From a virus (Duplodnaviria; Caudoviricetes): DNA of 64,000 nt. Shown piece by piece: positions 23,667 to 38,140 of this stretch (positions are counted from its first letter, which is position 1; every line of letters starts with the position of its first letter). Under the pieces are notes generated by a model, which saw nothing but the letters and a program-made list of their open reading frames with translations, was not told where the DNA came from and searched no databases. The position numbers were made by a program, and so were the translations under genes. Location: positions 1 to 64,000 of IMG/VR virus record IMGVR_UViG_3300009031_000221. One strand, given 5' to 3'.

Positions 23667-23668
23667 CG

Positions 23669-23836
23669 TTAGCCCTCCCGACTGTTGCGGCCGCGGCAGG
23701 CCTTCTTGTTGGCGGCGTGCTTGCGATCCTGGAAGGTGGCTGCACGGCCACGCCACATACCCACGGTGCCGCCAGCGGCAAAATGAGCCTTGCGAGCGGC
23801 AGCCTGGGACGCGGAGGTGTAATCATAGGGCTTCAT
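23669..23836 (-). CDS. Small basic protein (55 aa), not in the ORF track
   Basis: Manual translation MKPYDYTSASQAAARKAHFAAGGTVGMWRGRAATFQDRKHAANKKACRGRNSREG; first ORF after the repeated promoter motif. Confidence 0.6.
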   Translation of the reverse strand: MKPYDYTSASQAAARKAHFAAGGTVGMWRGRAATFQDRKHAANKKACRGRNSREG

Positions 23837-23873
23837 CGTTCATTCCGTCTGGGGTCGTTCGCCCCACATCCTA

Positions 23874-23901
23874 TCTACGCGGAACGAGGCAAAAGTAAGT
23901 C
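23874..23901 (-). promoter_or_regulatory. Repeated bipartite promoter-like motif, copy A
   Basis: GACTTACT-tttgcctcgttcc-GCGTAGA. Confidence 0.75.
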
Positions 23902-24566
23902 TAGCCCTGTGCCCCAGTAGTCAAAGTGAACCATCCATCTGAACCCATACTCACAATCTTAAAGTACCGGTAAGCCGTCGACATGGTATGTGATGTAACC
24001 GTACTCGGAGGGGGTACCTGATCATTCGGATAGATCGGTTCACTACTCACAGTGTTGATCACGACATTACCCACCCCCGACCCTATTCGAATGAATGTGA
24101 GTTCTTGTCCGTGATCCCCAGTTGCGGCATTCGGCAAAGTCACCGTCATCGATGTGCCCCCAGGTTCACATACAACAATCCTATCAGAGGTATTGATTGT
24201 CGCATCCCCAGTTATTTTGCGAAATGAACTTCCGCCACCTTGCGCTGGCGGGAAATCCCCCCAGATAGTGCCCGTGAATCGTGTTGCGTAGCCTAGGTAC
24301 TGCCCCCCGGTAATCAGATAGACCCCATTGGTTTCGGCGGATTCAAACGTATAGCTCGAGGATAGGGACTGATCTCCATCCACATAATTTGCAATCGATA
24401 GAGCATGCCCCGTGAATGCTCCTGTTGGGGCTACATCTATACCAATCCGTTCCCCCGCCACCATAGTCAATGTAGGCGCATTGACTACCCCTACGATTCC
24501 AGGCTTCCAGTTTGTAATCTGACCACCAACATCAACTTCCCGTACAACAGACCAATGATCAGCCAT
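23901..24566 (-). CDS. Short tail-fibre-like virion protein (paralogue of 25255-27993)
   Basis: N-terminal NWKPG...PTGAFTGH...SYTFE...RFTG and C-terminal SDR...MTVTLP.A...SMG.DGW are shared with the 912-aa gene. Confidence 0.7.
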   Translation of the reverse strand: MADHWSVVREVDVGGQITNWKPGIVGVVNAPTLTMVAGERIGIDVAPTGAFTGHALSIANYVDGDQSLSSSYTFESAETNGVYLITGGQYLGYATRFTGTIWGDFPPAQGGGSSFRKITGDATINTSDRIVVCEPGGTSMTVTLPNAATGDHGQELTFIRIGSGVGNVVINTVSSEPIYPNDQVPPPSTVTSHTMSTAYRYFKIVSMGSDGWFTLTTGAQG

Positions 24567-24575
24567 GATATGCCC

Positions 24576-25220
24576 CTACCGAAGTCCGAATGTTATGGAA
24601 ACAAACAACCCGGCTGCAACGAGATCTCCCAAGCTGGAGTCCACGTCAATAACGATACGGGTGTTTGCTACAAGATCCAAGTTAGCCGTTGTAACCGTCA
24701 ATGGAATCGGCGTAATGGTTTGTGCGACCAAGGCAGTCAAATCCGATGTCGGTGTAGACAACATGTTGACCAATCCCAAGTCCGGACCATGATTTACGGC
24801 TAGCGTATACGTCCCTGCGGTCAATGCAGCCGATTCAATGTAAGCTTGAACTTCTAGAACCTTGATGGCATAGGGGAACCACATGATCTCCCGAATAGTA
24901 TTACCGGGGGATATCAAGAATGGAACCCGAATCGTTTGGGCTACCAAGTCACCGAAGGCATCCCCCGCATGGAATGCCGCCGTGATATATCCTTGCTGCA
25001 GAAATTGCCGGATGTTCCCCGCCTCGAATGAGGTAGCTACCGTGGTGGAATACACCATCTGCACGAAGCCTGTAGGGGGCACGTATACAGGCCCCGCCTT
25101 CCGATAGCCCGCAGGGCCATCAGTTGCAGCCAATACGTCCGCAATCAGAATAGGAGTCGGGGCTGCAGGCGACACGGTCTTACCCGTGTGCGTCAACCGG
25201 ATCATCAAGCCTTCAGCCAT
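24576..25220 (-). CDS. Putative virion structural protein
   Basis: 214-aa beta-rich ORF between fibre genes; strong AAGGAG ribosome-binding site. Confidence 0.6.
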   Translation of the reverse strand: MAEGLMIRLTHTGKTVSPAAPTPILIADVLAATDGPAGYRKAGPVYVPPTGFVQMVYSTTVATSFEAGNIRQFLQQGYITAAFHAGDAFGDLVAQTIRVPFLISPGNTIREIMWFPYAIKVLEVQAYIESAALTAGTYTLAVNHGPDLGLVNMLSTPTSDLTALVAQTITPIPLTVTTANLDLVANTRIVIDVDSSLGDLVAAGLFVSITFGLR

Positions 25221-25254
25221 GGAAACTCCTTACCCTCACCCTATCCATTGGATA

Positions 25255-27993
25255 TTAGAAATATGCAGACCATCCATCTGCACCCATGCTCAGAAATTCC
25301 ACCGAATTATTTCCTACGTTAATGTCATAGGAACTGCCGCCCCAAATTTGATGAGCACTAGCGGATCCGCTGGGCGTATCTGGAGCGGTAAGTGCTATAG
25401 ATACAACATCATTGAACCCCATTTTAAGAACTCGAACTACCAATCCTTCACATGTGGAAGCTAACGGCAGAGTCACCGTCATATTTCCGGAACCAGGGGT
25501 TTGTTGACCGTTCTGTATTACAGTACAAATCAGATAACGATCCGATAATGTGATCAGTTTATCGGGAGCAGGGGAATTGGTATTGATTCGTCGAAAAGGT
25601 CCAACACCGGCATACACCTCTTCGGTGAATGCTCCATGTGACGTGAGGGCAGAATAGAACTTCCCGACATCGGTTACACGGAAACGTTCCCCAACATGGG
25701 GCCACCGCATCATCCAATGACCTGACTTGTATCGGGTCACCTGGTATTGTTCCACACCTGGGATTGGCGGATCCGCCGTGGAGGATCCAATATGTGTATA
25801 AGTGGTAGGCATGAAAGTGAATCCCGTACCTATGAGGGCGGATGAAACCGTTCGCGCTTGAACACCGTTAGTTTTCCCAGTCGCTAATAACCCATTAACA
25901 CCAACCGTTACGTTATAGTGGGAATCTAGTGCCGCACCATTAGCCTGGATGGATGACCATATAGCGCCTTGCATTGTGGCGAGGGTGCCAGGGACAGTGT
26001 TGGTCACAAAAGATCCCGTCAGACTATCTGTGGAGGATCCAACGGGTGTAGATTCCCCGCCAAAGAGGCTTGTGCATATAACTGCCGCCCCAATACTGGT
26101 TACTGCATACAGGTCATTGTTGCCATTAGCCACCGCCGCGATCCCTGCGGCCACAGAGTCAGCGGTATCCATTGCCGCACCCTGAACGGTGATTGTTGGT
26201 CCTTCATATTCGTCGGGTCCGGTCAATGAATTATCCCCATAAACCACAGTTCCCGCGAAAATACCCGGGGTAACAGCAGTTAATGTAATAATGGCAGGGT
26301 CTGATTTAACCGCCGTCCATACTGCAGACGCGGAAACGCCTGTAATGATATGGACTGGGGCACCCATAGTAATAGTACCGGAACCCGTTGGGGTGATGAC
26401 ATGTCCAGGGCCGGCGACTTTCCCTTCTAAGGAAATCCCCCAAACACCTGGATCTAATTCCATTGCCATAGCGTTGTAGGTTGTGGACCCCAAAGGAGGT
26501 AAAACCGCATTGACCGCAAGAGCAAGCCCTTCGGCTACTTGTTGTAACCCATCCCCACCCAAAGCGGTGTAGCTATAGGGCGTGTCCGGGTCACCCGCAA
26601 TATCGATCGTTGGGGTATTTCCCGGGGTTACAGAACCCCCTAATACAATAATGGCTAGGTCTTTGGTTCCACTGTTAACGGCGGCTGTCAGGCCAATAGC
26701 GATTTCCGAATTCGTTGGAGGTACAGGGCCTAATGAGGCGTATTGAAAGATTTTGGAATCCGTATTCGTAGTCACGGTGAATGTCAATGGGTTATTTCCC
26801 GCACCACCGCCATACGGGCCTGCCAATATATCCGTAGATACAGTTTTGGAAGATCCCGTATGATACGTGTACGACCATGAACCCCAATATCCCAGATTTC
26901 CAATATCTAGCGTGTAGATATCCCCATCAACACCAAGGACAACAGTGGAGGTGCTAATTGTAGGCGTGCCCGCATCCACAGGGTCACTGTCATAATTGGT
27001 AGCTCCAATGGTCAATCGGAATACATCTCCATCTACCATTTCGCGTGCTCGCAGGAAAGATGCCCGATAGATATCAGGCTGGATAACTACGGGCCCTGGA
27101 TTGCCGTTCTGCGTATGGATGCTATCAAATGTTAGTCCCCCGGTCCCGTCCAAATCCATAAAGATCGCACGGGTACAAACCATGTTTTCCCGACCGGTTC
27201 CGACAAGAGTTTCGCCAATCACTTCAAAAGTGTAATCCATATCAGGTTTATTTTGTGTGGCTTGGTGAAGGGCAGCCAGGATTTCGGGCATTGTAGACCC
27301 AGGATGTAGCGAACCTGAGTAATACTCCATCTTCGTACCACTTTCAGTATCCCCAATCTGAAGGTGTACCCTATCATAGAGGGCAGGGCCTGATCCCAAA
27401 TGAGGTGTCAACACCCAAATATCAGGCTGAGCAATAGAAGGCCCCCATTCCGAACCTATGTATGGAGGAGCGGCATTCATCAAATACGTGTCCCCCTCGG
27501 AGGGGCTAACAGGCTGAATTGTTTCAGTAGCGCTGATGGCCACTGGATTGGGCGTGCCGTGGTCATGATCTACAGATGCTGCAGTTGCGCTTACCCCGGC
27601 AGCATTATCAAACAAGGGATTGACGGGGCCTCCTACAGAACCACCCCCGCCTCCCCCAGCAGGGAAAATCGTCCATGCAGAACCGGTGAACCGAACGGCA
27701 CTGCCCGCATACGGGGCTCCCGTCTTGACTGGGAAAATATCCTCTGCAAGGGCATCCTCAAACGTATAGCTCGATTCCAGGGATTGATCTTCCCCATTGT
27801 AAGTCGCGATTGAGAATTCATGCCCTGTGAATGCTCCGGTAGCCGGAGTATTTACAACAACTCGATCCCCAATACTCAAGGTACCGGGATGCGTTGTCAC
27901 GACACTGATGACACCGGGCTTCCAATTGAGATTCTGGGACTCAATGTAGACAGTTTCCTGCATCGCTACCCAGTTGCCGATGTATCGTGCCAT
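25255..27993 (-). CDS. Long tail-fibre-like virion protein
   Basis: 912 aa, G/T/S/A-rich, DUF2793-like N-terminus, internal repeats of the type A.gla.AVN. Confidence 0.75.
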   Translation of the reverse strand: MARYIGNWVAMQETVYIESQNLNWKPGVISVVTTHPGTLSIGDRVVVNTPATGAFTGHEFSIATYNGEDQSLESSYTFEDALAEDIFPVKTGAPYAGSAVRFTGSAWTIFPAGGGGGGSVGGPVNPLFDNAAGVSATAASVDHDHGTPNPVAISATETIQPVSPSEGDTYLMNAAPPYIGSEWGPSIAQPDIWVLTPHLGSGPALYDRVHLQIGDTESGTKMEYYSGSLHPGSTMPEILAALHQATQNKPDMDYTFEVIGETLVGTGRENMVCTRAIFMDLDGTGGLTFDSIHTQNGNPGPVVIQPDIYRASFLRAREMVDGDVFRLTIGATNYDSDPVDAGTPTISTSTVVLGVDGDIYTLDIGNLGYWGSWSYTYHTGSSKTVSTDILAGPYGGGAGNNPLTFTVTTNTDSKIFQYASLGPVPPTNSEIAIGLTAAVNSGTKDLAIIVLGGSVTPGNTPTIDIAGDPDTPYSYTALGGDGLQQVAEGLALAVNAVLPPLGSTTYNAMAMELDPGVWGISLEGKVAGPGHVITPTGSGTITMGAPVHIITGVSASAVWTAVKSDPAIITLTAVTPGIFAGTVVYGDNSLTGPDEYEGPTITVQGAAMDTADSVAAGIAAVANGNNDLYAVTSIGAAVICTSLFGGESTPVGSSTDSLTGSFVTNTVPGTLATMQGAIWSSIQANGAALDSHYNVTVGVNGLLATGKTNGVQARTVSSALIGTGFTFMPTTYTHIGSSTADPPIPGVEQYQVTRYKSGHWMMRWPHVGERFRVTDVGKFYSALTSHGAFTEEVYAGVGPFRRINTNSPAPDKLITLSDRYLICTVIQNGQQTPGSGNMTVTLPLASTCEGLVVRVLKMGFNDVVSIALTAPDTPSGSASAHQIWGGSSYDINVGNNSVEFLSMGADGWSAYF

Positions 27994-28056
27994 AATGTGT
28001 ACTCCCGGTTCGTGTCTATTGTACCCGGGCTATAGAACAGATACCCGATAACCCAA

Positions 28057-28084
28057 GACTTACTTTCCATGCCCACTGCGTAGA
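28057..28084 (+). promoter_or_regulatory. Repeated bipartite promoter-like motif, copy B
   Basis: GACTTACT-ttccatgcccact-GCGTAGA. Confidence 0.75.
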
Positions 28085-28122
28085 CATCTCCGGAGGCGCC
28101 ATGCCTCCTGGAGGATGACCCT

Positions 28123-28407
28123 ATGGATCTCGCAGCCTGGAAACCGCTCCTCGAAAAGGAACTCAAGGAATTGATGCTCACGCCCGTTACCGTCACGGAT
28201 ACGGAATGGCAGGGTAAGCCCGCCCTTGAGGTGAACGGGGACTACGTGATCTATCCTGAGGGAAAGCTGTTCGTCTCCTACTGCAAGTCGGATTTCAACA
28301 CCCTGTCCGATAAGTTTGAGGAATTCCCAGACGCGGCTTCTCACATCATCTTCGACATTTCCAAGAAGATCCTTCACAAGAAATTGAAGGCACTCACCCA
28401 AGGATAA
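28123..28407 (+). CDS. Hypothetical protein
   Basis: 94 aa, GGAGG ribosome-binding site, GC-rich third positions. Confidence 0.75.
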   Translation: MDLAAWKPLLEKELKELMLTPVTVTDTEWQGKPALEVNGDYVIYPEGKLFVSYCKSDFNTLSDKFEEFPDAASHIIFDISKKILHKKLKALTQG

Positions 28408-28411
28408 CATC

Positions 28412-29329
28412 ATGACCCTCAACCACGCTCAACTTGCCCGAATCACCGCTACCCGGTGCTGCGTATGTCGTGCCCCACTTACGGATGCAGAGTCCGTACA
28501 GCACGGCATCGGACCAACCTGCAGTAAACGCTATTACAATCCGCTACATGTGCCTACTGAGGATCATGTCAAGGTTGCGATTGGAATGCTGGCGGCTTCG
28601 GGATTGCCGGATCACATCGTTGACGGATTCCTGCAGTCCGTGGATGGATCAAGCGTCAAGGCCCGCCTTGGGTCGAACCTGTTGGTCTACTGGGCATCCG
28701 CACACTACGATGACCGCACCGAGGTCTTCAAGTGCGCTTCCATCATCCGTGCCCTAGGCTACACGGAGCTTGCGGACAAGTTGGAATCTGATCGTACGGT
28801 TGCTACGGTGCGTTACCCGGTTGCCCCCGATGACAAGCTCGAGGTCTACATCCCGGATAGCATCAACCTGGAGCGGGACATGAAAGGCATCCCCGGCGCC
28901 CAACTCCTCACGGCTCCCGATGGCAACCTCAAGAAGCAAGGTCGCAAGATCGGATGGTCCGTGCCCCTGGCCGAGGCGCTCCACTTCGAGACCGTCCTGG
29001 GCGTCCACTGTGGCAAGGAACTGGCATGCGGCACCAAGGGAATCTACCCGATCCCCAAGAAGAATTGGGCTGACGTGAAAGCCTTCCGCCAACCATCGCC
29101 GCAGCAAACCTTTGCCGCATCCGTTCAAGGCGGTACCGTGCAAGTCCTGACCTTGGCCAATGGCCGGATGGAGATCCATTCCCCATTCAACCCGGCTTTC
29201 AAGGAGGCACTCAAGACACAAGTGCCGTACCGGGATCGGATTTGGACGGGGACTTGCTGGTCAGTCGCTTCCCGTTACCACGGGATCATCAAGTCTCTCA
29301 TTCAGATGCACTATGGCGTGATGGTCTAA
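28412..29329 (+). CDS. DUF6011-like zinc finger plus C-terminal HARP-like domain protein
   Basis: CCVCRAPLTDAESVQHGIGPTC; C-terminus SPFNPAFKEALK...RIWTGTCWSV. Confidence 0.7.
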   Translation: MTLNHAQLARITATRCCVCRAPLTDAESVQHGIGPTCSKRYYNPLHVPTEDHVKVAIGMLAASGLPDHIVDGFLQSVDGSSVKARLGSNLLVYWASAHYDDRTEVFKCASIIRALGYTELADKLESDRTVATVRYPVAPDDKLEVYIPDSINLERDMKGIPGAQLLTAPDGNLKKQGRKIGWSVPLAEALHFETVLGVHCGKELACGTKGIYPIPKKNWADVKAFRQPSPQQTFAASVQGGTVQVLTLANGRMEIHSPFNPAFKEALKTQVPYRDRIWTGTCWSVASRYHGIIKSLIQMHYGVMV

Positions 29330-29370
29330 AACGAAACGACCCCCGGAAGTTTCCCTCCGAGGGTCATTTC
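29328..29370 (-). terminator. Intrinsic terminator hairpin between convergent genes
   Basis: Inverted repeat GAAACGACCC/GGGTCATTTC with inner CGGA/TCCG; the minus strand ends in GTTTCGTTTT. Confidence 0.7.
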
Positions 29371-29392
29371 AAATGCTAACCCGTGGATTACG

Positions 29393-29689
29393 CTACGGGG
29401 TAGCCTTCTTCTTCTTCAGCCACACGAGGAACAAGGCCACAAGGCCCGCCAAGAGCAACCATACCCCGTGCTCAACGGTAGCGATGGCACCGGCTTCCTC
29501 GGCATCCGTGCCCGTTACGGCTACGGCAGGCGTGACTGCTTCAGCAGCCGGAACCGCAGGGGCATCTACAGCAGGGGCTACTGCTACCGGGGCTACTACA
29601 GCAACACCGGCATCAGGGGCATCTGCTGCCAAGACAGGAACGGAAAGAAACAAGGCGCATAGCGCCAGAACGCTGATTGACAGACGCAT
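29393..29689 (-). CDS. Small exported, membrane-anchored Ala/Pro/Val-rich protein
   Basis: Signal peptide MRLSISVLALCALFLSVPVLA, low-complexity stalk, C-terminal hydrophobic helix followed by KKKK. Confidence 0.8.
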   Translation of the reverse strand: MRLSISVLALCALFLSVPVLAADAPDAGVAVVAPVAVAPAVDAPAVPAAEAVTPAVAVTGTDAEEAGAIATVEHGVWLLLAGLVALFLVWLKKKKATP

Positions 29690-29707
29690 ATTGGAACTCC
29701 TTTGGGG

Positions 29708-29920
29708 TCAAAAGTCGATAGCCCCAGCCTTCGGTGGGGAATCTCGACGGTACACCTTCGGCCCCTTTAGGCTGAGGGCGGTCAGTTGATCCTTAATTGC
29801 GGCACGTTGTCCCGCAGTCAATGTTGGATCGAATAGCATTTGCCTAAGCCTCTCACGATGAGGGGCTAGGTATTGATCCCGTACATCGGGATTGATCTGT
29901 TGCGATGAAAGAAAAGGCAT
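29708..29920 (-). CDS. Small hypothetical protein
   Basis: 70-aa ORF packed between neighbours. Confidence 0.55.
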   Translation of the reverse strand: MPFLSSQQINPDVRDQYLAPHRERLRQMLFDPTLTAGQRAAIKDQLTALSLKGPKVYRRDSPPKAGAIDF

Positions 29921-29928
29921 GACGTATT

Positions 29929-30300
29929 CTACGCCCTTACCGGGACATATTCAAGCTGTCCGTGATCATTTACCTTGTAACCCCCCGCCGAGGGTTCCTT
30001 GGCAAAGCGTTGCAGGGGTGCATTAACCCAATCCTTTGACAACCGGGAACGTGCCTCCATGACAATTTCGTCATGCTGGTCTAATACACCTTTCCCCCAG
30101 CACTGCATTTCCCATGACAAGTCATCCGCAGTTACCTGAGGGCGGCAATGTACTTTTGGAAATACTACATTGGTTGCTACACCAGGGGCCTTCAGAATCT
30201 TGGGGTTGGCGACATTGACCTTTGGTTTAGCCTGTGCCAAACCAGGGATGCCAAGCAGCGCCAATGAACCTAGAGTTTGAATGAAGCTACGCCGATTCAT
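29929..30300 (-). CDS. Protein with twin-arginine-like signal peptide
   Basis: MNRRSFIQTLGSLALLGIPGLAQA; ATGA overlap with the 1868-aa gene. Confidence 0.7.
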   Translation of the reverse strand: MNRRSFIQTLGSLALLGIPGLAQAKPKVNVANPKILKAPGVATNVVFPKVHCRPQVTADDLSWEMQCWGKGVLDQHDEIVMEARSRLSKDWVNAPLQRFAKEPSAGGYKVNDHGQLEYVPVRA

Positions 30301-33300
30301 ATATCTCTCCCTTGCCTCAATTCATCCGGGTATACCGCAAGTGTTACATCCGCAGGATTTGGCACTTGCCTATTGTACCCCTTGAACATCGGGCGTCCCG
30401 CGAGACGGAATCGATCCGAAGCCGCGTACCCTTCACCATACCCCGCAGGAGATATAATGCCGCCAAGAGTCAACCCGGCTTCTCGAATATTCGTATCCCC
30501 CAAGATACCGTAGGTCGCAATGACCATCTGAATTTCGTCGCCTTGTGTGACCGTAACAGGCCCTGCCGCTACAACTTCCTCGTAGAAGTTCCTCACAAGC
30601 ATCGCCCGGCAGACCAGCACGCCACCCTTGAGAACAGGCTTGATGGATGCAGGGAAGCTATCGGAAACCCAATCTACAGGCCCGCCCGAAATACCATCAT
30701 CGGAGAGAACGAACAAAGGCCCGCCGCCACGATACAAACGGAATATGGTCGTTCCCGTTGGGTTGATCTGCCTCCAGGCGCCAAAGTCCGTGGTCGTAAC
30801 GGAACCATCGGATTCTGCGATGAGCGCCCCGGGCTCTCCCATGAACCGATCGTATTCATCCCCACCATTGGTCAATGGGATGATATTTTGAATCGGGCGA
30901 GGGCCAGCCGGGGAGGACTTCATAGCAGAAGCCTTATCCCCTAGAGGGTTCTCACACAGAAAGTCGGAGTCCTGAAGCAAAGCCCCCGTTGGCAAACGCT
31001 CAATCATGCCGGTCAGATTCACTTGACTGAATCCCATCCCCGCATTCATGGGCTCATCCATACCCCCGAAGAAGTATGCCCCCGTGACCTTCGCACCAAT
31101 AGCCTTGGTGTTCGGGAAAGGCGTCCGCAACTGCAACATGGTCGAAATGTCAACAGTCGGATCCGTGTGGTATACGGATACCCGGATCCCATTACCCTCA
31201 GCACCTACAGGAACAGCCAAGAAAATAATCTCCTTGTCCACACCGACCGATACCTTGACGGCACGTTGCATTGCCGGATGGTTGTTGATCTTGTCAATAG
31301 CATCCCCAACAATGTCCATCCGCATGATGTTCGTGGATGGAACCCCCTGACCATTCAACCAAGTTTCATTTCCAGCATTTGCACAGAAATAGAAATCCTG
31401 AATTGATCCGTCCAACAGGGTAACTCGCACAACCGCAAATTCGTGACCAACATTGAGGAGGCTGCCATCACCAAGACCCATCAGGCTAAGGGTTGCCCTG
31501 CTAGGGTTGGTCTTCTGGCCTTCCGTATACGTCCGCGTCCATGTCTGCCACTGCGGGTCATTTACGGTATCCGTAGCCCTCAATGCTGCCTGAGGGGTAT
31601 TCTGCACATACCCAACGTCAAGCGGGGTGCCAGGGTACATTTGACCCCCAACCTTGCCCGTTCCCATGGTCGTATAGAAGTCCATTGACGCCAATACCTC
31701 GAAGGCACGAGCATTAGGAGTCTCCGGGACGTATCCTCCAGCATTATTGTACTGCTGGATCGGCCAACGCATATTGTACTGTGCAGCGGAATCCAACTGT
31801 CCATACCGTTCTTCGTAATCAGATGCCACGCTTACCGTCCCCTTACGGGACATGTATACGTCACCCTGATATACCGTACGGTTATAGGCAGCATAGAATT
31901 GATCATTGCTCGATGCAGGGCACGGAATGACCATAGACACACCCTCGAGTTCATTGGGTGTATCTACAGAGTCAAATACGGTGCCATCAACATTCGTACT
32001 TCCCTTGCCGCTGTGCTTGCGGCATAGGACAAAGTTGTTACCGTTGATGAAGTCCCGGGCAAAACCAAATACCGTGCAAACTACAACGAATTGAAAGTCC
32101 TCAAACGCATGCGGGGACGTTCCATATTGAAGCGCCCTTGTCAAGTCCAGAACATTCGATGGGACGATATAGGTATGGTCACCCGTTTGTTGCGGCCCTC
32201 CCAGAGGAGACGTTATATCCTGCGCTCCATCCCGAAGGATGAACAAGGTTTGGCTATCCACGTCCTCTCGTAGGAGGTTCGGAGCAGCATCATTGTCCGC
32301 GCCCCAACGATTGTTGACATCGATGGTACGCCCGCCCTTGGTCACGAAGTCCCGGTAGTCATACACCCCAATGAGGCGTGCCACACCGTAGTAAGGGGGC
32401 AACTGAATACCCTTAAGTCCACGACCGAAATCCGATGAGTTCACTGCAGCCAAACTGTCAATGACATTCTGAGCATACGGGACAACATTGTTGATACTAG
32501 TGGTCTTGCGTGCCGCAATGTAGGGCTGATTGTTCGTGCCAACAGTGGTCGTACCGTGGTGTGCATATGTTGCCAAACCCGTCACAAACAACATATTCTT
32601 GACTTGGTTTCCGCCAGTCGGGTTGTCTTCCCCACCAATGACATTGAACACAGGTCGCGTCACATCTTCCCTATCCAGGAACAAGTGATTGATACCAGGC
32701 ATGAAGGGCTGGGGGGATTCCCCTATGTACTTGTAGTATGGAATATCCTGCCTGCCGAAGCGAGGCATGAATTCGTAAGGAACCGCAAAGCCCATCTTCT
32801 TGCCGTCCGCGGGCGTCCCTGTAAATATTTGATTGCAGTCCTTGGCCCCACCATCCGTATATGTATACGGACCCATAAGAGATTGCGGCAAGAAACCCGT
32901 GAAATCCGTAGCATCCAAAGTCATATCCCGGCTTCGGAATGGCCGGAAAATGATAGTCTTGCTACCACGGTCTACGAACAACTCGTGTTCGCGGTCTTGC
33001 TCCGTGAACCCGACAACGTTACCCCCATAGTTAGGGGCGAACGGTGCGTGCCAACCGAGACCGGGCAAACGATTCCACAACTGGACATGATTTGCATTCC
33101 AGAACATTTCGCCGGCGGGGCCAGGGAATGTCGGGTCTACCGCAATGGGGCTCTGCCGTAGGTAGGGCCCGTCAGAAGGGACGCTGCCGACACGGGCAAA
33201 ACGTACCAATTCATCTGCCACACGTGCCGTTGCCCCATGTCCCGGATGGTACATGAAGGTCGTGTTGAGGATCATCTTGTTCGGGACACCTGACGCAGGT

Positions 33301-35903
33301 AGAGATAGGTCATATCCATCAACGGCACCGAATCCCAAGTATTCTTTCTTCCACGGATGCTCCGTCAATCCGGCTACGTCCGTCAGGACAACAGCTACAT
33401 CAGCCCAACGGCTAGGGTTGTATACCGACAAATCCTCGGAATGGGTGTATTGCGATCGAAATTCAATCGTGACAGCCCCACCAGAAGCCGAATTGAAACC
33501 CCCCGTCGTAAATCCAGGACTCAATGCCTGAACTACAATACCTGTGGATATAGGGGCATTCTTATTTGTATAACCTGCGGTCATACCCGCCCCGATAACC
33601 TTGAATGCTCCGTTGTTATTCTGGGCCCCTGCGGCATCGTCCCCATATAGAACAACATAGACTTCCGATGATGCCCCCGTGCTATCCCTACCCCCATCTG
33701 TCAACATCCCGTATAGGGTCTTGAGGTCGTGGAACAAGGGATTGGTAATCAGGGTCGGATCATCCTGGAAATTACCCGCGATATCCTTGCTGAACCAATT
33801 AACATTATCAAAATCGACGCCGACATCGATATATCCAATAGCATTAGGGATATCTACGTCGAACAACTTCGTCGCAAGAATATTCGTCATCCGCAGGCTC
33901 GTGTGCAGGATGCTGCCAAGGACAACGAATGGGCGTTCGAAGTTGGTCTCCCGCCAAGGATACATCGGCCCAACGTGACGGGCGGCATCAATAGCTGATA
34001 GTCCCGGAGGCGCCGCTTCTAATCCACGTTGCTGCACAAAACGCAACGATACAGGATTCTGATTACCATTGGCGGGATCCACAATGGGGTATCCCGTCTT
34101 CCAGTACTCCTTGGGGGTCACAAGGCGAACCCCACGAGTACCAGAATCCTTGAATGTGCCACGAACACCCTGATTGCCGAACTCGCCGCCTGTAAACAGA
34201 AGAATACTCGAACCATCGGTCCAGTTTGTCCCGCCTACGTCATTCATGAATCCTGATGGGTGGAAGTCCGGGCCTACATCCCAAGTCACGTTCACGTCAA
34301 ATGGATCTGTAGTTATCCCAACCGTACCCTGATCCTGTGTAGCCTCATTGTCACACATGATTGTTACATCAGTCTGCAACGCTGCTGCGTCTGACCACAC
34401 CGTACGAATACCATCGGGCCCATCTACTCGAGTGGTGTAATTCGGAGTCGCAATAGCACTGCCAGCCAACAACGAATCAACCTCATGGATAACGGGTCCA
34501 ATGGTCGTGCCCTTGGATTCCTGCTTCCATGCAGACTTGAGCGTGCCCTTTGTCAATGCAGCTACGTTATGTGCCAATAGACGATTGTAATCCCAATCCT
34601 GGGCATTGATGGCATGACGGAGATCCAACACGTCCTGACGGGCAATCTCGTCCGCAAACAAACCATCGGGACGGTTGTTGTAGAACTTGATGGGTGCCCC
34701 TAGGAGATGACCTGCTGCGGCAGTACCAAATCTACCACGCCCGCCAGCGGGGATTGTGATATCCCCCGTGTTAGTATCCACAGCACTGACACCAACAATT
34801 TCATTGTCAATGACCAGGAACACATGAGACAAATCCGCCTGCATATAAGGGTCATCCAAACCAGATGCACCTAATAGCAATGGGTCTGTATGGATTACCA
34901 AATCCGTTGACAACATAATGCTTGTCAATAGCGGAGTCTGGAGTTCACGTGACGTAGGGTTCGGAGCATGTGTTGCCATCGGCATACGGTCGAATGAACC
35001 ATTGTGCGTTGGATTGCCCCCACCATGTTGAACGGCACTGTAGTCATTCGACCCACGGCGGAAGATGGCACAAACAGGAATGGCATATACATAGCCATCT
35101 ACCGTGCCGAATGAATTGTCTGGGTCTCCGTTGCCCGCACGCCACAGAGAAGGATCCCCAAGCTCCGTCCGCATATTCTCAAATGCGCCGAGTAACGCCA
35201 CGGGGCTTGCGAATGTACCCTGCCCATAGATGTAGGGATCTCCCAAACCATCGGGATAGACATTCAATGTTACGGTAGACCCATTGCCTACACCACCACC
35301 ATGAACACGAAGACGGTACTGAACCTGAATCCGTGCCGTAGTGTCATAACCAATGGTGGGATCCTCAAGGTCATCGTCAATATTCGTCCCGCCAAACAAA
35401 ACATTGCCATACTTGAAAATCTTCGTAGCCTCAGGCTTGTTTGCGGTAGACGGGTTTGCATCTACCCGAGTCTGCCATGCCTCTAGGAACACATAGTCAA
35501 TCCGGGTGTCAGATTCTGGAGGTGCCATGAGGCTAATGACGTTGGACAAGTCATCGATCTGCGTTCCGGCAATAGGTAGAACCCAACCGTTGACATTCGC
35601 CCAAACTACAGGCTGCGTTTCAGGAGATTCCTGCATTCCCGTTGGCGTACGAGGGTTCCCCAGACGAAAACGATTAGCCCAGTTTGGATTGAACTGGAAG
35701 TCTACATCAGCACGAGTCGGATCCATAAAGAAACCAGACGGCACCATGGTACGAACCACTTGCCGCAGGCTCTCCCAAGCCTCCAAACTCATTAGGTTTA
35801 ACTCTGAGTCCAAAGGCGGCTTGCCTTTCTGCCATACCACGGCAGAAAACTGCCGTGCGAAAGCATCCATGGGACGGGAAACACCAGGTCCGAAATCTAC
35901 CAT
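30297..35903 (-). CDS. Large virion/baseplate-associated protein with DUF4815-like N-terminus
   Basis: 1868 aa; VWQKGKPPLDSELN, DYVFLEAW, RIQVQYRLR, DGYVYAIPVC; paralogous to 47718-51212. Confidence 0.75.
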   Translation of the reverse strand: MVDFGPGVSRPMDAFARQFSAVVWQKGKPPLDSELNLMSLEAWESLRQVVRTMVPSGFFMDPTRADVDFQFNPNWANRFRLGNPRTPTGMQESPETQPVVWANVNGWVLPIAGTQIDDLSNVISLMAPPESDTRIDYVFLEAWQTRVDANPSTANKPEATKIFKYGNVLFGGTNIDDDLEDPTIGYDTTARIQVQYRLRVHGGGVGNGSTVTLNVYPDGLGDPYIYGQGTFASPVALLGAFENMRTELGDPSLWRAGNGDPDNSFGTVDGYVYAIPVCAIFRRGSNDYSAVQHGGGNPTHNGSFDRMPMATHAPNPTSRELQTPLLTSIMLSTDLVIHTDPLLLGASGLDDPYMQADLSHVFLVIDNEIVGVSAVDTNTGDITIPAGGRGRFGTAAAGHLLGAPIKFYNNRPDGLFADEIARQDVLDLRHAINAQDWDYNRLLAHNVAALTKGTLKSAWKQESKGTTIGPVIHEVDSLLAGSAIATPNYTTRVDGPDGIRTVWSDAAALQTDVTIMCDNEATQDQGTVGITTDPFDVNVTWDVGPDFHPSGFMNDVGGTNWTDGSSILLFTGGEFGNQGVRGTFKDSGTRGVRLVTPKEYWKTGYPIVDPANGNQNPVSLRFVQQRGLEAAPPGLSAIDAARHVGPMYPWRETNFERPFVVLGSILHTSLRMTNILATKLFDVDIPNAIGYIDVGVDFDNVNWFSKDIAGNFQDDPTLITNPLFHDLKTLYGMLTDGGRDSTGASSEVYVVLYGDDAAGAQNNNGAFKVIGAGMTAGYTNKNAPISTGIVVQALSPGFTTGGFNSASGGAVTIEFRSQYTHSEDLSVYNPSRWADVAVVLTDVAGLTEHPWKKEYLGFGAVDGYDLSLPASGVPNKMILNTTFMYHPGHGATARVADELVRFARVGSVPSDGPYLRQSPIAVDPTFPGPAGEMFWNANHVQLWNRLPGLGWHAPFAPNYGGNVVGFTEQDREHELFVDRGSKTIIFRPFRSRDMTLDATDFTGFLPQSLMGPYTYTDGGAKDCNQIFTGTPADGKKMGFAVPYEFMPRFGRQDIPYYKYIGESPQPFMPGINHLFLDREDVTRPVFNVIGGEDNPTGGNQVKNMLFVTGLATYAHHGTTTVGTNNQPYIAARKTTSINNVVPYAQNVIDSLAAVNSSDFGRGLKGIQLPPYYGVARLIGVYDYRDFVTKGGRTIDVNNRWGADNDAAPNLLREDVDSQTLFILRDGAQDITSPLGGPQQTGDHTYIVPSNVLDLTRALQYGTSPHAFEDFQFVVVCTVFGFARDFINGNNFVLCRKHSGKGSTNVDGTVFDSVDTPNELEGVSMVIPCPASSNDQFYAAYNRTVYQGDVYMSRKGTVSVASDYEERYGQLDSAAQYNMRWPIQQYNNAGGYVPETPNARAFEVLASMDFYTTMGTGKVGGQMYPGTPLDVGYVQNTPQAALRATDTVNDPQWQTWTRTYTEGQKTNPSRATLSLMGLGDGSLLNVGHEFAVVRVTLLDGSIQDFYFCANAGNETWLNGQGVPSTNIMRMDIVGDAIDKINNHPAMQRAVKVSVGVDKEIIFLAVPVGAEGNGIRVSVYHTDPTVDISTMLQLRTPFPNTKAIGAKVTGAYFFGGMDEPMNAGMGFSQVNLTGMIERLPTGALLQDSDFLCENPLGDKASAMKSSPAGPRPIQNIIPLTNGGDEYDRFMGEPGALIAESDGSVTTTDFGAWRQINPTGTTIFRLYRGGGPLFVLSDDGISGGPVDWVSDSFPASIKPVLKGGVLVCRAMLVRNFYEEVVAAGPVTVTQGDEIQMVIATYGILGDTNIREAGLTLGGIISPAGYGEGYAASDRFRLAGRPMFKGYNRQVPNPADVTLAVYPDELRQGRDI

Positions 35904-35919
35904 GTTCGCCTCAGTTCAA

Positions 35920-36756
35920 TCAGAACAACACTGCGTAGGTTGCGATATACCGCTTGCTCGCGGAGGTGTTCAAGAAAGCCACCCTAATCTTCGTTGTCTT
36001 CGAGCAGAATGCTATGGACTCCAATAGTCCCGCTTGGCACCATGTCGTTCCATTATCAGGAGACAAATAGGCAGAGAACCCACTAGGTTCCTGATCGCAT
36101 TCCTTGATCGTCCTAATCGCAGGGTCATTGGTCAGGTTATGAGCGACATCATTGGAGATATCAAACTCGTAAAGCTTCCAATACATAACGAACTCATCGG
36201 CGCCAACCGGGTCACCTGAAAATGGATCCAGTGTGTATGCCCCGATGTCAATCTCCTTGGTGATAAGAAGACCAGGGTGATTCGGGAGGCTCGTCGGATG
36301 AACAGGATCCAAAGTTGGATTGATCGGGAGCAATGCTGTATGCGTTGGCATTTGCCCAGGCAAGGGGTTCAGAATCGAACGACCCGTTTGCAACCGTGGA
36401 GAGTAAATGTGAATGTTCGGAGGATCGGAGAACGTATCGCGGAATGTCGCCGTGAAATCAAGTTCCTCAACATGCGTGGAGGTCAACAACGGGTTAAAAT
36501 AGACGTTGCCGAACATCGGATACTGGGCTAACAGGTAGGCATACGAGATGCTGGATACATCGCCACCATCGCAATCCCCTAGACCATCCAATACGTAGGA
36601 GCTACTATCGATTGGGAACTCCGCGCCTTTGACTACAGGTATCGCGTACTTCCCATTAATGGGAACGGCGCCATCAGTACCAGTCGTGGGGGTGCGTTCG
36701 ACCTGAACGATCTTAGGGTCATTAGGATGGCTTTTAAGGTCTATGAGGATCCGCAT
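35920..36756 (-). CDS. Putative virion structural protein
   Basis: 278 aa, first gene of the operon with the 1868-aa gene. Confidence 0.65.
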   Translation of the reverse strand: MRILIDLKSHPNDPKIVQVERTPTTGTDGAVPINGKYAIPVVKGAEFPIDSSSYVLDGLGDCDGGDVSSISYAYLLAQYPMFGNVYFNPLLTSTHVEELDFTATFRDTFSDPPNIHIYSPRLQTGRSILNPLPGQMPTHTALLPINPTLDPVHPTSLPNHPGLLITKEIDIGAYTLDPFSGDPVGADEFVMYWKLYEFDISNDVAHNLTNDPAIRTIKECDQEPSGFSAYLSPDNGTTWCQAGLLESIAFCSKTTKIRVAFLNTSASKRYIATYAVLF

Positions 36757-36846
36757 GTCTTATGATACCTCTCGTACAACGTACTCATTCACGGGGGACT
36801 ATAGGATACCTAACGCCGTTCATTATACCGAAAGTTACGTTTTACA

Positions 36847-36874
36847 GGCTTACTATTCGGAAGTTCAGCGTAGA
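36847..36874 (+). promoter_or_regulatory. Repeated bipartite promoter-like motif, copy C
   Basis: GGCTTACT-attcggaagttca-GCGTAGA. Confidence 0.75.
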
Positions 36875-36905
36875 TGTTATGTGGGATGCCTAGCACCCCC
36901 AGGAG

Positions 36906-37631
36906 ATGTCAATGAAGTTCCTCAAAACCATGACCCTGGCGCTGGCCCTTTCCCTTCCCGTGCAGTCACATGCGGCGGAATCGAAGCCCGTGATCGTCGT
37001 GGCGGAAGACTTGGCACAGCAGGCCAAAGAACGCTTCAAGGCCGGGGAATTCGAAGTTGCTGCCAAGATGTTCATGAACGCTTACGCCAAGAGCCATGCC
37101 CCGGCGATGGTGTTCAACGCCGCGAGAGCCTACGAGAATGCGGGGAAGAACGGCGATGCCGCAAGCCTGTTCCGCCTCTACGTCAGCCTGTCGGATGATA
37201 CGGATGGCATGATTGAAGCCCGTCAGCATCTCGCCAAGTTGAACACGCCCTCCCCGGTCATCGTTCAGCCCCCGCAGGCACGCCCGACCCCGCGTCCAGT
37301 GGCCCCGATGGTTCCTGTTGCCGTTACCCCCGCTCCGTCGCATACGGCAGCGTGGGCGGTCACTGGAGGCGCCGCAGCGGCAGTGTTGAGCGGTGTTACC
37401 CTCATCGGCATTGCCAGTGCAGACTCGAATCAGGCCAATGCGGATTACCGTCGCACGGGGGACTTGCAGGCATACAGGAACGCCTATAGTACGTCGCAAA
37501 CCGAATGGTGGGCCGGAGTTGCCATCACGGGTGCTGGCGCGGTCCTAGGTGGCGTTTCCGTGTACATGTGGAACAAGCCCGTCACCGTCACGCCCATGGG
37601 CAAGGGAATCGCCTTCGGCGGATCTTTCTAG
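36906..37631 (+). CDS. Exported TPR-repeat protein of myxobacterial type
   Basis: Signal peptide; TPR-like AKERFKAGEFEVAAKMFMNAY...MVFNAARAYENAG; Pro-rich linker; Gly/Ala-rich hydrophobic helices; C-terminus GIAFGGSF. Confidence 0.8.
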   Translation: MSMKFLKTMTLALALSLPVQSHAAESKPVIVVAEDLAQQAKERFKAGEFEVAAKMFMNAYAKSHAPAMVFNAARAYENAGKNGDAASLFRLYVSLSDDTDGMIEARQHLAKLNTPSPVIVQPPQARPTPRPVAPMVPVAVTPAPSHTAAWAVTGGAAAAVLSGVTLIGIASADSNQANADYRRTGDLQAYRNAYSTSQTEWWAGVAITGAGAVLGGVSVYMWNKPVTVTPMGKGIAFGGSF

Positions 37632-37639
37632 GGATTGAT

Positions 37640-37667
37640 GACTTACTTTGGGAGAGTTCAGCGTAGA
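37640..37667 (+). promoter_or_regulatory. Repeated bipartite promoter-like motif, copy D
   Basis: GACTTACT-ttgggagagttca-GCGTAGA. Confidence 0.75.
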
Positions 37668-37742
37668 TGATGTGTACGCTGGTTGTCACATCAGCGGGAT
37701 CCACATCGAAGCCGAAAAGTAGTCCCTGGGAGGGGCGTACCT

Positions 37743-38042
37743 ATGCCAAATTTTCAGCGAGTGGTGGTTGGTCTTCTGGTTCTCGTCATCATCAACCTGT
37801 TCGGGCTGCTGGTGACGGGGCATCAGGTCAATGTCAACCTGAAGAAACTGGTCGCACATAGCCCCGCACCGGAGGAACATGCCAAAAAGGGGATCGACGA
37901 GCAGATCCTGGATCTGTGGGCGGAGCAGAACGACATCCCCCTTCCACAACATGTATCAGCGGATACGATGTCCCAAAAGGAAGTGGAGGACATATTCAAC
38001 AAGCGGGGGATCGTCCCGGCATTGCCGATTTCTACGAAATGA
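37743..38042 (+). CDS. Small single-pass membrane protein
   Basis: Likely start ATG 37743 (GGAGG upstream); VVVGLLVLVIINLFGLLV transmembrane segment. Confidence 0.7.
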   Translation: MPNFQRVVVGLLVLVIINLFGLLVTGHQVNVNLKKLVAHSPAPEEHAKKGIDEQILDLWAEQNDIPLPQHVSADTMSQKEVEDIFNKRGIVPALPISTK

Positions 38043-38072
38043 ACGGTTCGTATCATAAATACAGCTAAGCGT

Positions 38073-38100
38073 GACTTACTTTTCCCATCGACAGCGTAGA
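38073..38100 (+). promoter_or_regulatory. Repeated bipartite promoter-like motif, copy E
   Basis: GACTTACT-tttcccatcgaca-GCGTAGA. Confidence 0.75.
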
Positions 38101-38140
38101 TAGAAGGTAGGGCGCCTGAGGTGCCCACAAGGAACCTTCG

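What the first reader, a model, noticed from the sequence alone, without database searches (positions are those of the whole stretch)
23874..38100. Five-copy bipartite motif G(A/G)CTTACT-N13-GCGTAGA: an ECF-sigma-like phage promoter
Seen: copies at 23874-23901 (-), 28057-28084, 36847-36874, 37640-37667 and 38073-38100 (+), all with exactly 13-nt spacers, intergenic, and oriented toward a start codon about 30-75 nt downstream. Read as (A/G)CTT-N17-CGTA. Established: ECF sigma promoters are bipartite with tight spacing, and several have CGTA-type -10 elements. Inference: a dedicated regulon driven by a host or phage-encoded alternative sigma factor; I found no copy in front of replication or virion genes.
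Basis: partly seen in the sequence, partly recalled or inferred. Interest (0 to 1): 0.7.

Follow-up and report, generated by a model that had tools for sequence, protein, structure and literature searches.

The report
Huge phage's own sigma-type promoter
The five repeats are copies of the roughly 130-copy promoter that a 536-kb groundwater phage places before its small accessory genes and tRNA genes; it is most likely read by a sigma factor the phage encodes, a familiar phage strategy used here on an unusually large and uniform scale.

Summary
All five copies match exactly at the stated coordinates, against 0 expected by chance.

The window is the first 64 kb of a 536,053-bp virus record. That record holds 90 exact copies and about 130 profile-level copies of a-GRCTTACTTYY-N10-GCGTAGAT.
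- The spacer is rigid.
- About 91% of sites are intergenic.
- 113 sites point the same way as the next gene and 1 points the other way.
- The median distance to a start codon is 38-39 nt.
- Six sites lie ahead of tRNA genes, and six pairs sit back to back between divergent genes.
- A pyrimidine-purine step 7 nt after GCGTAGA marks the likely start, and an RNA hairpin follows.

It is therefore a core promoter. In the window it drives only five small islands of genes with no known function, wedged between replication and tail genes that lack it.

I found no phage RNA polymerase. I found two full sigma factors. The ECF-like one (308 aa, genome 305,993-306,916) is the likelier reader. Its orthologues sit in relatives that each carry a private version of the motif. 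Its sigma-2 region is conserved, like the GTA core of the -10 box, and its sigma-4 region is variable, like the -35 box.

No RNA data exist, so transcription starts are untested.

Earlier agents in this scan reached the same conclusion from other windows of this genome. I rate it a new member of a known kind, of moderate interest.

The parts
23874..23901 (-). Promoter P1 (GACTTACT-N13-GCGTAGA). Predicted start near 23867.
   Evidence: Exact match. Profile score 38.9. Lies 37 nt upstream of the start at 23836.
22497..23836 (-). P1 transcription unit: four small genes (23669-23836, about 23514-23756, 22878-23510, 22497-22868) with no family match.
   Evidence: ORF list. No Pfam or PHROG match.
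23850..23866 (-). Hairpin at the 5' end of the P1 transcript.
   Evidence: Folding of the 40 nt from the predicted start gives -7.8 kcal/mol.
28057..28084 (+). Promoter P2. Predicted start near 28091-28092.
   Evidence: Exact match. Lies 38 nt upstream of the ATG at 28123.
28123..29329 (+). P2 unit: a 94-aa gene of unknown function and a 305-aa protein with an N-terminal DUF6011 motif. 29373-29789 may belong to it too.
   Evidence: Pfam PF19474, E=2e-9. Only PHROGs of unknown function.
28092..28108 (+). Hairpin at the 5' end of the P2 transcript.
   Evidence: -13.5 kcal/mol.
36847..36874 (+). Promoter P3 (GGCTTACT variant). Predicted start near 36881.
   Evidence: Exact match. Lies 37 nt upstream of the start at 36912.
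36906..37631 (+). P3 gene: about 240 aa, with a signal-peptide-like N-terminus and a weak TPR match.
   Evidence: Translation read from the alignment. Pfam TPR_16, E=5e-5, below the cut-off.
37640..37667 (+). Promoter P4. Predicted start near 37674.
   Evidence: Exact match. Lies 75 nt upstream of the ATG at 37743, with a hairpin at 37677-37696 of -9.2 kcal/mol.
37743..38042 (+). P4 gene: 99 aa, no family.
38073..38100 (+). Promoter P5. Predicted start near 38107.
   Evidence: Exact match. Profile score 40.4. Lies 40 nt upstream of the ATG at 38141. The same 28-mer recurs at 444323, 492458 and 494669 in the genome.
38107..38128 (+). Hairpin at the 5' end of the P5 transcript.
   Evidence: -14.0 kcal/mol.
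38141..38746 (+). P5 gene: 201 aa with a lipoprotein-like signal sequence, no family.
   Evidence: Translation read. No Pfam or PHROG match.

Best explanation
The motif is the core promoter of one temporal or functional class of genes in a 536-kb phage. The -35 box (GACTTACTT) and the -10 box (GCGTAGAT) are read together by a sigma factor bound to the host's core RNA polymerase. Transcription starts at a purine about 7 nt after GCGTAGA. The RNA begins with a short G+C-rich hairpin, followed by a ribosome-binding site and the start codon about 39 nt after the motif.

The class serves the phage's small accessory genes and its tRNA genes. It does not serve the replication or virion modules. In the window it switches on five islands of small genes with no known function that are inserted between those modules.

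My best candidate is the 308-aa protein at genome 305,993-306,916 (-). That gene itself has a TTGAC-N17-GTA promoter of host type, so it would be made early and then turn this class on.

Shown: the sites, their geometry, their placement and the existence of phage sigma genes. Inferred: the start point, dependence on a sigma factor, and which sigma factor it is (about 55% for the 308-aa protein).
For: Sites:
- 90 exact and about 130 profile-level sites, cleanly separated from background.
- The spacer is rigid at 13 nt and its sequence is unconstrained.
- About 91% of sites are intergenic.
- The next gene within 150 nt is co-oriented in 113 cases and opposite in 1.
- The distance to the start codon has a median of 38-39 nt and an interquartile range of 34-42. 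That leaves no room for a separate core promoter.
- There is no conservation upstream of the motif.
- Six sites lie ahead of tRNA genes, which rules out a translation signal. Six back-to-back pairs, 10-18 bp apart, sit at divergent genes.
- Position 34 is a pyrimidine and position 35 a purine in 86% of sites each.
- Hairpin stems open at +3 to +7 in 63-76% of sites.
- The -35 hexamer CTTACT occurs only 46 times outside the sites. Same-composition hexamers have a median of 217.

Polymerase: no match to PF00562, PF00623 or PF00940 in the genome. The giant proteins with no known function show no polymerase match.

Sigma factor:
- The 308-aa protein matches TIGR02937 from region 2 to region 4, E=8e-6.
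- A profile of its family hits the solved sigma-H structure 3mzy, E=7.6e-5.
- The top fold matches of its model are almost all ECF sigma factors, probability up to 0.97.
- Some homologues are named sigma-24 by JGI.

Relatives:
- 16 huge-phage contigs carry orthologues.
- Each relative I examined genome-wide has its own private two-box motif upstream of genes, with the same geometry.
- The sigma-2 region is nearly invariant and the sigma-4 region is variable. This mirrors the shared GTA core of the -10 boxes and the variable -35 boxes.
- The closest orthologue (56% identity, near-identical sigma-4 helix-turn-helix) sits among sites reading GGGCTTAS...GCGTAGATC.

Privacy of the motif: no record listed from the 185,579-species genome scan or from IMG/VR holds more than single, chance-level copies of the exact motif.
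Against: - No transcription start, RNA or binding data exist for this phage.
- The curated TIGR02937 and Pfam cut-offs are not reached by the 308-aa protein.
- The -35 box has no AAC core.
- A second complete sigma factor exists (378 aa, genome 194,060-195,196). It is also conserved in relatives, also sigma-like by fold and also behind a TTGAC-type promoter.
- The match between promoter variants and sigma-4 variants follows phage phylogeny, so any phage gene would show it.
- Two relatives with near-identical sigma-4 helices (G004, G006) share only the GTT core of their -35 boxes.
- Divergent phage polymerases can escape Pfam, and the PF00940 control search rang nowhere.
Confidence: 0.75

Rival explanations
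1. This is the same kind of promoter, but it is read by the phage's other sigma factor: the 378-aa protein at genome 194,060-195,196 (N-terminal winged helix plus sigma domains), or another phage factor. The 308-aa ECF-like protein would then serve a different class.
For: - Its family is conserved in most of the larger relatives, and 33 homologues were found, some with Pfam sigma region 4.
- The top fold matches of its model are sigma factors, probability up to 0.96.
- It sits alone on the + strand in a motif-free core region behind TTGACT-N16-TAAAGT, as an early gene would.
Against: - Its fold matches lean towards group 1 and 3 sigma factors rather than ECF types, whereas the promoter has ECF-like geometry.
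- Sequence evidence is weak: TIGR02937 E=0.067, and no PDB hit by sequence or by profile.
- No orthologue was found in several relatives that do have private motifs, though those records are incomplete.
Confidence: 0.2
2. A host-encoded alternative (ECF) sigma factor reads the motif. The phage would be borrowing a host stress regulon's promoter.
For: CGTA-type -10 boxes are typical of some bacterial ECF regulons (recalled from the literature). The host is unknown, so its sigma factors could not be examined.
Against: - No stretch listed from the scan of 185,579 species genomes holds more than one copy of the motif, which is the chance level.
- Relatives with G+C from 42% to 66% each carry a different private motif together with their own divergent sigma orthologue.
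- About 130 near-identical strong sites would be an unusual load on a stress sigma factor.
Confidence: 0.1
3. An unrecognised phage-encoded RNA polymerase reads the motif. It could be single-subunit, or a highly divergent multisubunit enzyme, possibly hidden in one of the giant proteins with no known function.
For: The genome has many very large proteins with no family match, including one of 3,723 aa. Divergent phage polymerases are hard to detect. The PF00940 control was uninformative.
Against: - There is no match to the polymerase domains PF00562 and PF00623, whose controls rang in 14 of 14 genomes.
- Two boxes separated by a free 10-nt spacer, with a Y/R start 7 nt downstream, is sigma-type architecture. 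It is not the contiguous block seen in T7-type promoters.
- Two complete sigma genes would have no purpose.
Confidence: 0.05
4. The motif is not a promoter. It would be a transcription-factor operator, a recombination or cassette-boundary site, or an RNA element.
For: The promoter, hairpin and ribosome-site units look like cassettes. Identical 28-mers recur, for example P5 at three other loci.
Against: - There is no room for another core promoter between the motif and the start codon, and no conservation upstream of it.
- The strand rule is strict, 113 to 1.
- The motif precedes tRNA genes as well as protein genes.
- The spacer sequence is free, which is unlike a structured RNA.
- The boxes are not palindromic.
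Confidence: 0.03

Closest known systems
Salmonella phage 7-11 sigma factor gp47 and its late promoters (Lavysh et al. 2022, PMC8948821)
   Same: A phage-encoded sigma-70-family protein binds host core polymerase and reads a phage-specific bipartite promoter (GTAAtg-N16-aCTA). The early genes use host sigma-70 promoters.
   Different: Phage 7-11 has eight promoters, in front of late structural genes. Here about 130 promoters serve accessory and tRNA genes and avoid virion genes. The box sequences differ. The sigma factor here has an extra N-terminal domain of about 110 aa. Nothing here has been tested experimentally.
Bacterial ECF (group 4) sigma factors and their promoters, e.g. B. subtilis SigW (TGAAAC-N16-CGTATA) and E. 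coli sigma-E (recalled from the literature)
   Same: The candidate has a two-domain sigma-2 plus sigma-4 fold. The promoter has a CGTA -10 box, a 16-bp spacer between hexamers, and a start a few nt downstream.
   Different: The -35 box has no AAC core and is longer (GACTTACTTY). The protein is encoded by a phage, falls below the curated family cut-offs, and has no evident anti-sigma partner (not examined). The regulon is far larger and more uniform than typical ECF regulons.
Bacillus phage SPO1 gp28 and gp33/34, and coliphage phiEco32 gp36 sigma cascades (PMC13401047 abstract; PMC8948821)
   Same: Host sigma transcribes early genes that include a phage sigma gene. The phage sigma then redirects core polymerase to a private promoter class.
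   Different: phiEco32 promoters have a single element. The SPO1 classes are middle and late. Here the timing is unknown, and the class marks the accessory genome.
Sigma factors of 'group 2' jumbo phages that lack their own polymerase (Iyer et al. 2021, PMC7824862)
   Same: A jumbo phage with no polymerase gene but with its own sigma factors, predicted to recruit the host enzyme.
   Different: That survey describes the proteins and not their promoters. This phage belongs to an uncultivated groundwater clade. Its sigma family (at least 605 members) is ECF-like, neither minimal nor RpoD-like.

Membership tests
Sigma-dependent bipartite bacterial-type promoter | Two conserved boxes separated by a spacer of fixed length and free sequence | tested here: met
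   The spacer is always 13 nt between the written boxes. Information content in the spacer is near zero.
Sigma-dependent bipartite bacterial-type promoter | Sites lie upstream of genes and are co-oriented with them, including RNA genes | tested here: met
   113 co-oriented against 1 opposite. Median 38-39 nt to the start codon. Six sites lie ahead of tRNA genes.
Sigma-dependent bipartite bacterial-type promoter | Transcription starts 5-9 nt downstream of the -10 box | not testable with these tools
   No RNA run holds this DNA. The only indirect support is the pyrimidine/purine step at 6/7 nt after GCGTAGA, present in 86% of sites.
ECF-type promoter | CGT-containing -10 box about 16-17 bp from the -35 hexamer | tested here: met
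   The layout is GACTTA-N16-CGTAGA. Relatives keep xGTA at the same distance.
ECF-type promoter | AAC core in the -35 box | tested here: not met
   The -35 box is GRCTTACTT, with no AAC at any conserved position.
ECF (group 4) sigma factor, for the 308-aa candidate | [quoted passage not shown] | tested here: inconclusive
   TIGR02937 covers profile positions 17-161 of 165, E=8e-6, at 25.5 bits against a cut-off of 42.9. The Pfam regions fall below their cut-offs. A family profile hits the PDB sigma-H entry 3mzy, E=7.6e-5.
ECF (group 4) sigma factor, for the 308-aa candidate | Two-domain sigma fold without region 3 | tested here: met
   The AlphaFold2 model has mean pLDDT 72.5, with confident helical domains at 113-200 and 234-303 joined by a low-confidence linker. 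Nearly all of the top 40 Foldseek hits are sigma factors, mostly ECF, with probability up to 0.97 but E only about 5e-3.
ECF (group 4) sigma factor, for the 308-aa candidate | Binds core polymerase and directs initiation at its own promoter | not testable with these tools
   This needs in vitro transcription or a reporter assay.
T7-type single-subunit polymerase promoter | A contiguous conserved block of about 20 bp that includes the start site, plus a PF00940 polymerase gene | tested here: not met
   The conserved boxes are split by 10 free positions and end 7 nt before the Y/R step. No PF00940 match was found, but that control was uninformative.
phiKZ/AR9-type phage multisubunit polymerase promoter | Phage genes for beta/beta'-like subunits | tested here: not met
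   No PF00562 or PF00623 match at E<=1. The controls rang in 14 of 14 genomes.

The most novel reading that the evidence does not exclude
This clade of huge phages runs on private transcription codes. Each phage's fast-evolving sigma-4 domain and its -35 box would have co-diversified while sigma-2 and the GTA -10 core stayed fixed. Every phage would then express its large accessory genome and its tRNAs through a promoter that neither the host nor co-infecting relatives can read. The family of at least 605 members would be a natural library of mutually orthogonal sigma-promoter pairs.
Probability: 0.4. Interest if true: 0.6.

Novelty: new member of a known kind. Interest (0 to 1): 0.4.

Why it matters
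The motif gives a working transcription map for an uncultivated 536-kb phage. It separates the accessory and tRNA genome, which carries its own promoter, from the replication and virion core, which does not. It also marks the true starts of about 115 small genes with no known function.

It points to a large family of divergent phage sigma factors, each paired with an easily read private promoter. This could be tested directly in vitro and might supply orthogonal expression parts.

The principle is long established: a phage sigma factor redirects the host polymerase. The advance is therefore one of scale and breadth, not of kind.

Tried and rejected
- **RNA evidence.** No RNA holder is listed for this DNA, only four groundwater DNA runs of one study plus a small share in a sediment run. 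No start mapping was possible and read laying was not used.
- **Known phages.** Megablast of 18 kb against the phage collection gave no match.
- **Canonical sigma-70 sites.** They are not enriched: 28 against 33 in the reversed control genome-wide, and 7 against 17 expected in the window region.
- **Weak sigma region-4 hits.** The 316-aa hit looks like an N-terminal HTH fused to an unidentified domain, and the 173-aa hit is a small HTH protein. I judged this from their sequences and dropped both. The 259-aa protein at 365,572-366,348 has only marginal region-2 and region-4 matches, and only partial N-terminal homologues in 3 of 10 relatives.
- **Search for a second uniform promoter class.** It gave only weak signals: GGGTAW, TAGATC-N16-GGGTA and TTGAC-N17-GTA.
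- **Autoregulation.** No sigma candidate has the motif directly upstream in any genome.
- **First reading of relative G004.** I first read its motif on the wrong strand, as CTTACGGAAG...AACGG. In gene orientation it is CCGTTAAAA...TTCCGTAAGTA.
- **Closest relative of the 378-aa sigma factor.** Its DNA could not be fetched.
- **Hairpin energy.** Compared with shuffled sequence it is only modestly lower (-8.0 against -7.1 kcal/mol, p=0.009). The hairpin's fixed position is the stronger signal.
Full report
**Observation.** The pattern GRCTTACT-N13-GCGTAGA occurs exactly five times in the window, at the coordinates and strands given. It occurred in none of 100 dinucleotide-preserving shuffles. Allowing three mismatches adds nothing. 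An alignment of the five sites with flanks shows no conservation upstream. Downstream it shows a T after GCGTAGA and a G-rich segment.

**Genome context.** The window is bases 1-64,000 of a 536,053-bp IMG/VR virus record with 52% G+C. The record carries 68 tRNA genes and a tmRNA. Public runs that hold it are groundwater metagenomes.
- The record has 90 exact copies of the motif, and none of the pattern read backwards.
- A profile built from relaxed seeds finds about 130 sites (35 on +, 95 on -). The count is stable from 10 to 25 bits, while the reversed-sequence control gives 0-1.
- The spacer is always 13. CTTACT-Nx-GCGTAGA gives 113 sites at x=13 and at most one at any other x from 8 to 19.
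- The full consensus is a-G-R-C-T-T-A-C-T-T-Y-Y, ten unconstrained positions, then G-C-G-T-A-G-A-T.

**Why it is a promoter.**
- About 91% of sites are intergenic.
- Where a gene starts within 150 nt downstream, it is co-oriented in 113 cases and opposite in one.
- The distance from the motif's end to the start codon has a median of 38-39 nt and an interquartile range of 34-42.
- That distance must hold a leader and a ribosome site, so no other core promoter fits. Nothing upstream of the motif is conserved.
- Six sites lie 39-336 nt ahead of tRNA genes, so the element does not act in translation.
- At six divergent gene pairs, two sites stand back to back, 10-18 bp apart.
- Position 34 is a pyrimidine and position 35 a purine in 86% of sites each. 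This is the usual -1/+1 preference of bacterial polymerase (established knowledge). It places the likely start 7 nt after GCGTAGA.
- From that point the RNA tends to form a hairpin whose 5' arm opens at +3 to +7 in 63-76% of sites. Many share a GGGC...GCCC stem.
- The hexamer CTTACT is rare outside the sites: 46 copies, against a median of 217 for hexamers of the same composition. This is consistent with avoidance of stray half-sites.

**The window.**
- Bases 376-22,527 encode a replication module: family A DNA polymerase, DnaB-like helicase, SNF2 helicase, a UvrD-like helicase with an intein, and a methylase.
- Bases 25,255-64,000 encode very large proteins. They include a DUF2793 protein, a Baseplate J protein and a protein with a weak tail-PHROG match, so this is a tail and baseplate module.
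- None of these genes has the motif.
- The five sites drive five small islands between the modules (22,497-23,836; 28,123-29,329 or a little further; 36,906-37,631; 37,743-38,042; 38,141-38,746). Their products have no family, apart from a DUF6011 motif and a weak TPR match. Two begin with secretion-type signal sequences (read).
- Genome-wide, only 12 of 130 sites lie in the first 207 kb, where long core operons dominate.

**Which polymerase.** The genome has no match to the multisubunit polymerase domains PF00562 and PF00623, whose controls rang in all 14 reference genomes. It has none to the T7-type PF00940, though that control was uninformative. The giant proteins with no known function, including one of 3,723 aa, show no polymerase match in Pfam or PHROGs. 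The split two-box architecture with a free spacer and a downstream Y/R start is that of sigma-dependent promoters. It is not that of single-subunit phage polymerases.

**Sigma candidates.** Genome searches with the sigma region 2 and 4 models, followed by family scans, leave four proteins.
1. A 308-aa protein at 305,993-306,916 (-).
   - It matches TIGR02937 over regions 2 to 4 (E=8e-6, below the curated cut-off).
   - A profile of 14 orthologues hits the solved sigma-H structure 3mzy (E=7.6e-5).
   - An AlphaFold2 model (pLDDT 72.5) has an N-terminal extra domain plus two helical domains. Its best fold matches are almost all ECF sigma factors (M. tuberculosis sigma-H, E. coli sigma-E, SigK, AlgU, SigW), with probability up to 0.97 but weak E-values because the two domains float relative to each other.
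   - At least 605 homologues exist in metagenomes. Several are named sigma-24 by JGI.
2. A 378-aa protein at 194,060-195,196 (+).
   - Sequence evidence is weak (no PDB hit).
   - Its model's best fold matches are sigma factors of groups 1 and 3 as well as ECF types.
   - 33 homologues were found, some with Pfam sigma region 4 or Mrr_N.
3. A 174-aa protein at 161,789-162,310 (-) made of two tandem sigma region-4 domains, above the Pfam cut-offs. It is 50-71% identical in relatives. That is too conserved to explain promoters that differ from phage to phage.
4. A 259-aa protein with marginal matches only.

**Relatives.** Orthologues of the 308-aa protein (32-50% identity) lie on 16 huge-phage contigs of up to 436 kb. 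I fetched twelve of these records whole and called genes in them. In every one but G010 I found an over-represented two-box motif in upstream regions, each private to its genome.

| Record | Motif | Sites |
|---|---|---|
| G000 (this phage) | GaCTTACTT...GCGTAGAT | 129 |
| G012 | ggGgCTTAttt...GAGTAGTCT | 61 |
| G007 | GGGATCATC...GAGTAG | 57 |
| G014 | GTGTAAC...CGTGCTAC | 46 |
| G008 | GGGGGTTCC...CCGTA | 37 |
| G015 | TGTAA...CGTGCAG | 28 |
| G005 | GGGGGTTCAAC...TCTCCGTAT | 24 |
| G004 | CCGTTAAAA...TTCCGTAAGTA | 17 |
| G011 | ACGTAAA...TCGTATAG | 13 |
| G009 | close to the G005 motif | 7 |
| G006 | TGGTTGGAGCG...CCGT..CTAC | 7 |
| G001 | GGCTAAACC...GGATAGC | 5 |

- Cross-searches confirm that the motifs are private. 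The G008 pattern gives 33 hits in G008 and background elsewhere. The G004 pattern gives 16 hits in G004 and one elsewhere.
- Most -10 boxes keep a GTA core at the same distance from the -35 core. The -35 boxes differ widely.
- In the protein alignment the sigma-2 segment is almost invariant and the sigma-4 helix-turn-helix is the most variable part. This is the pattern expected if this family reads these promoters.
- The closest orthologue found (56% identity, on a 24.6-kb contig) keeps the sigma-4 helix-turn-helix nearly unchanged. It sits among sites reading GGGCTTA(C/G)...GCGTAGATC, with the same -10 box, the same spacing and a closely similar -35 box.
- Caveats: this agreement also follows phage phylogeny, and G004 and G006 have near-identical sigma-4 helices but share only the GTT core of their -35 boxes.

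**Expression of the sigma genes.**
- No sigma candidate has the motif directly upstream in any genome.
- The 308-aa gene is preceded, 126-187 nt upstream, by TTGAC-N17-GTAnnA in five related phages.
- The 378-aa gene is preceded by TTGACT-N16-TAAAGT.
- Eight of 16 TTGAC-N17-GTA sites in the genome are non-coding, although only 13% of the genome is.
- These look like host-type promoters. Both sigma factors are plausibly early products, which fits a cascade from host sigma to phage sigma to this class.

**Host sigma rival.** The listed hits in 185,579 species genomes and in IMG/VR are single copies scattered over unrelated taxa, at the level expected by chance. Each relative has a different motif together with its own sigma orthologue. 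The host itself is unknown, so this rival is weakened but not excluded.

**Comparison with what is known.** The closest tested case is Salmonella phage 7-11. Its sigma factor gp47, with host core polymerase, reads eight bipartite late promoters (GTAAtg-N16-aCTA), and host sigma-70 reads the early ones (PMC8948821). A survey of jumbo phages notes that those without their own polymerase encode sigma factors (PMC7824862). The ECF reclassification notes that phage ECF-like sigma factors are divergent and escaped its search (PMC7826278). My literature searches turned up no description of this promoter or of the promoter class of this phage clade.

**Verdict.** Earlier agents of this scan reached the same conclusion from other windows of this same genome. 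I re-derived the counts, the private motifs of the relatives and the sigma candidates independently. I added fold evidence for two sigma factors, the Y/R start signal, the conserved TTGAC-type promoters of the sigma genes, and the nearest-orthologue comparison. In kind it is a new member of a known class; its scale and uniformity are what stand out.

Noticed in passing
window 15402-20048 (+): A 1,548-aa UvrD/REP-type helicase is interrupted by an intein-like insert. Pfam Intein_splicing matches residues 752-1086, between the helicase N and C domains, but scores below its cut-off.
   Followed up: no
window 30297-35903, 38749-43998, 44049-47705, 47718-51212, 51963-57539 (all -): Five very large proteins (1,164-1,868 aa) in the tail and baseplate region have no Pfam family. 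One has a weak tail-PHROG match. A 3,723-aa protein with no match follows at genome 68320-79491.
   Followed up: partly
genome G000:C1:307068-307096 (-), upstream of the 308-aa sigma gene: The promoter-like site TTGACTTACTTCT...GTACTAC carries a perfect copy of the class -35 box (GACTTACTTCT) but no GCGTAGA. It is the only intergenic orphan with the extended box. Related phages have TTGAC-N17-GTAnnA at the same place.
   Followed up: partly
genome G000:C1, e.g. 130671, 170228, 206216, 405473, 462149, 506224 (-); window 28041 (-) and 25230 (-): GGGTAA and GGGTAT are enriched 3-4 fold in upstream regions that lack the main motif. A subset reads (G)GTAGATC-N16-GGGTAT. This may be a second promoter class; GGGTAT recalls the sigma-B-type -10 box (from memory). 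Some copies are probably ribosome-site neighbours instead.
   Followed up: partly
genome G000:C1:161789-162310 (-): A 174-aa protein consists of two tandem sigma region-4 domains with no region 2. It is 50-71% identical in seven relatives and sits in motif-free core regions. It may be a minimal sigma-like or late transcription factor.
   Followed up: partly
genome G000:C1:193187-193639 (-) next to 194060-195196 (+): The 378-aa sigma gene is paired divergently with a gene related to the N-terminal part of the 259-aa sigma-like protein. Related genes lie next to each other, on opposite strands, in relatives G012 and G015 as well.
   Followed up: no
genome G000:C1:483473-483562 (-): A tRNA with anticodon UUA, which would read the UAA stop codon, lies 295 nt downstream of a motif site at 483857.
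   Followed up: no
relative G004 (L206-L216), e.g. 39453/39502, 94158/94219: This relative's private promoter sites often occur as closely spaced pairs on opposite strands, 20-90 bp apart.
   Followed up: no
window 27994-28122: P2 shares a 129-bp divergent intergenic region with the 912-aa DUF2793 tail-fibre-like gene (25255-27993, -). A GGGTAT lies 48 nt upstream of that gene and next to the P2 -35 box on the other strand.
   Followed up: no
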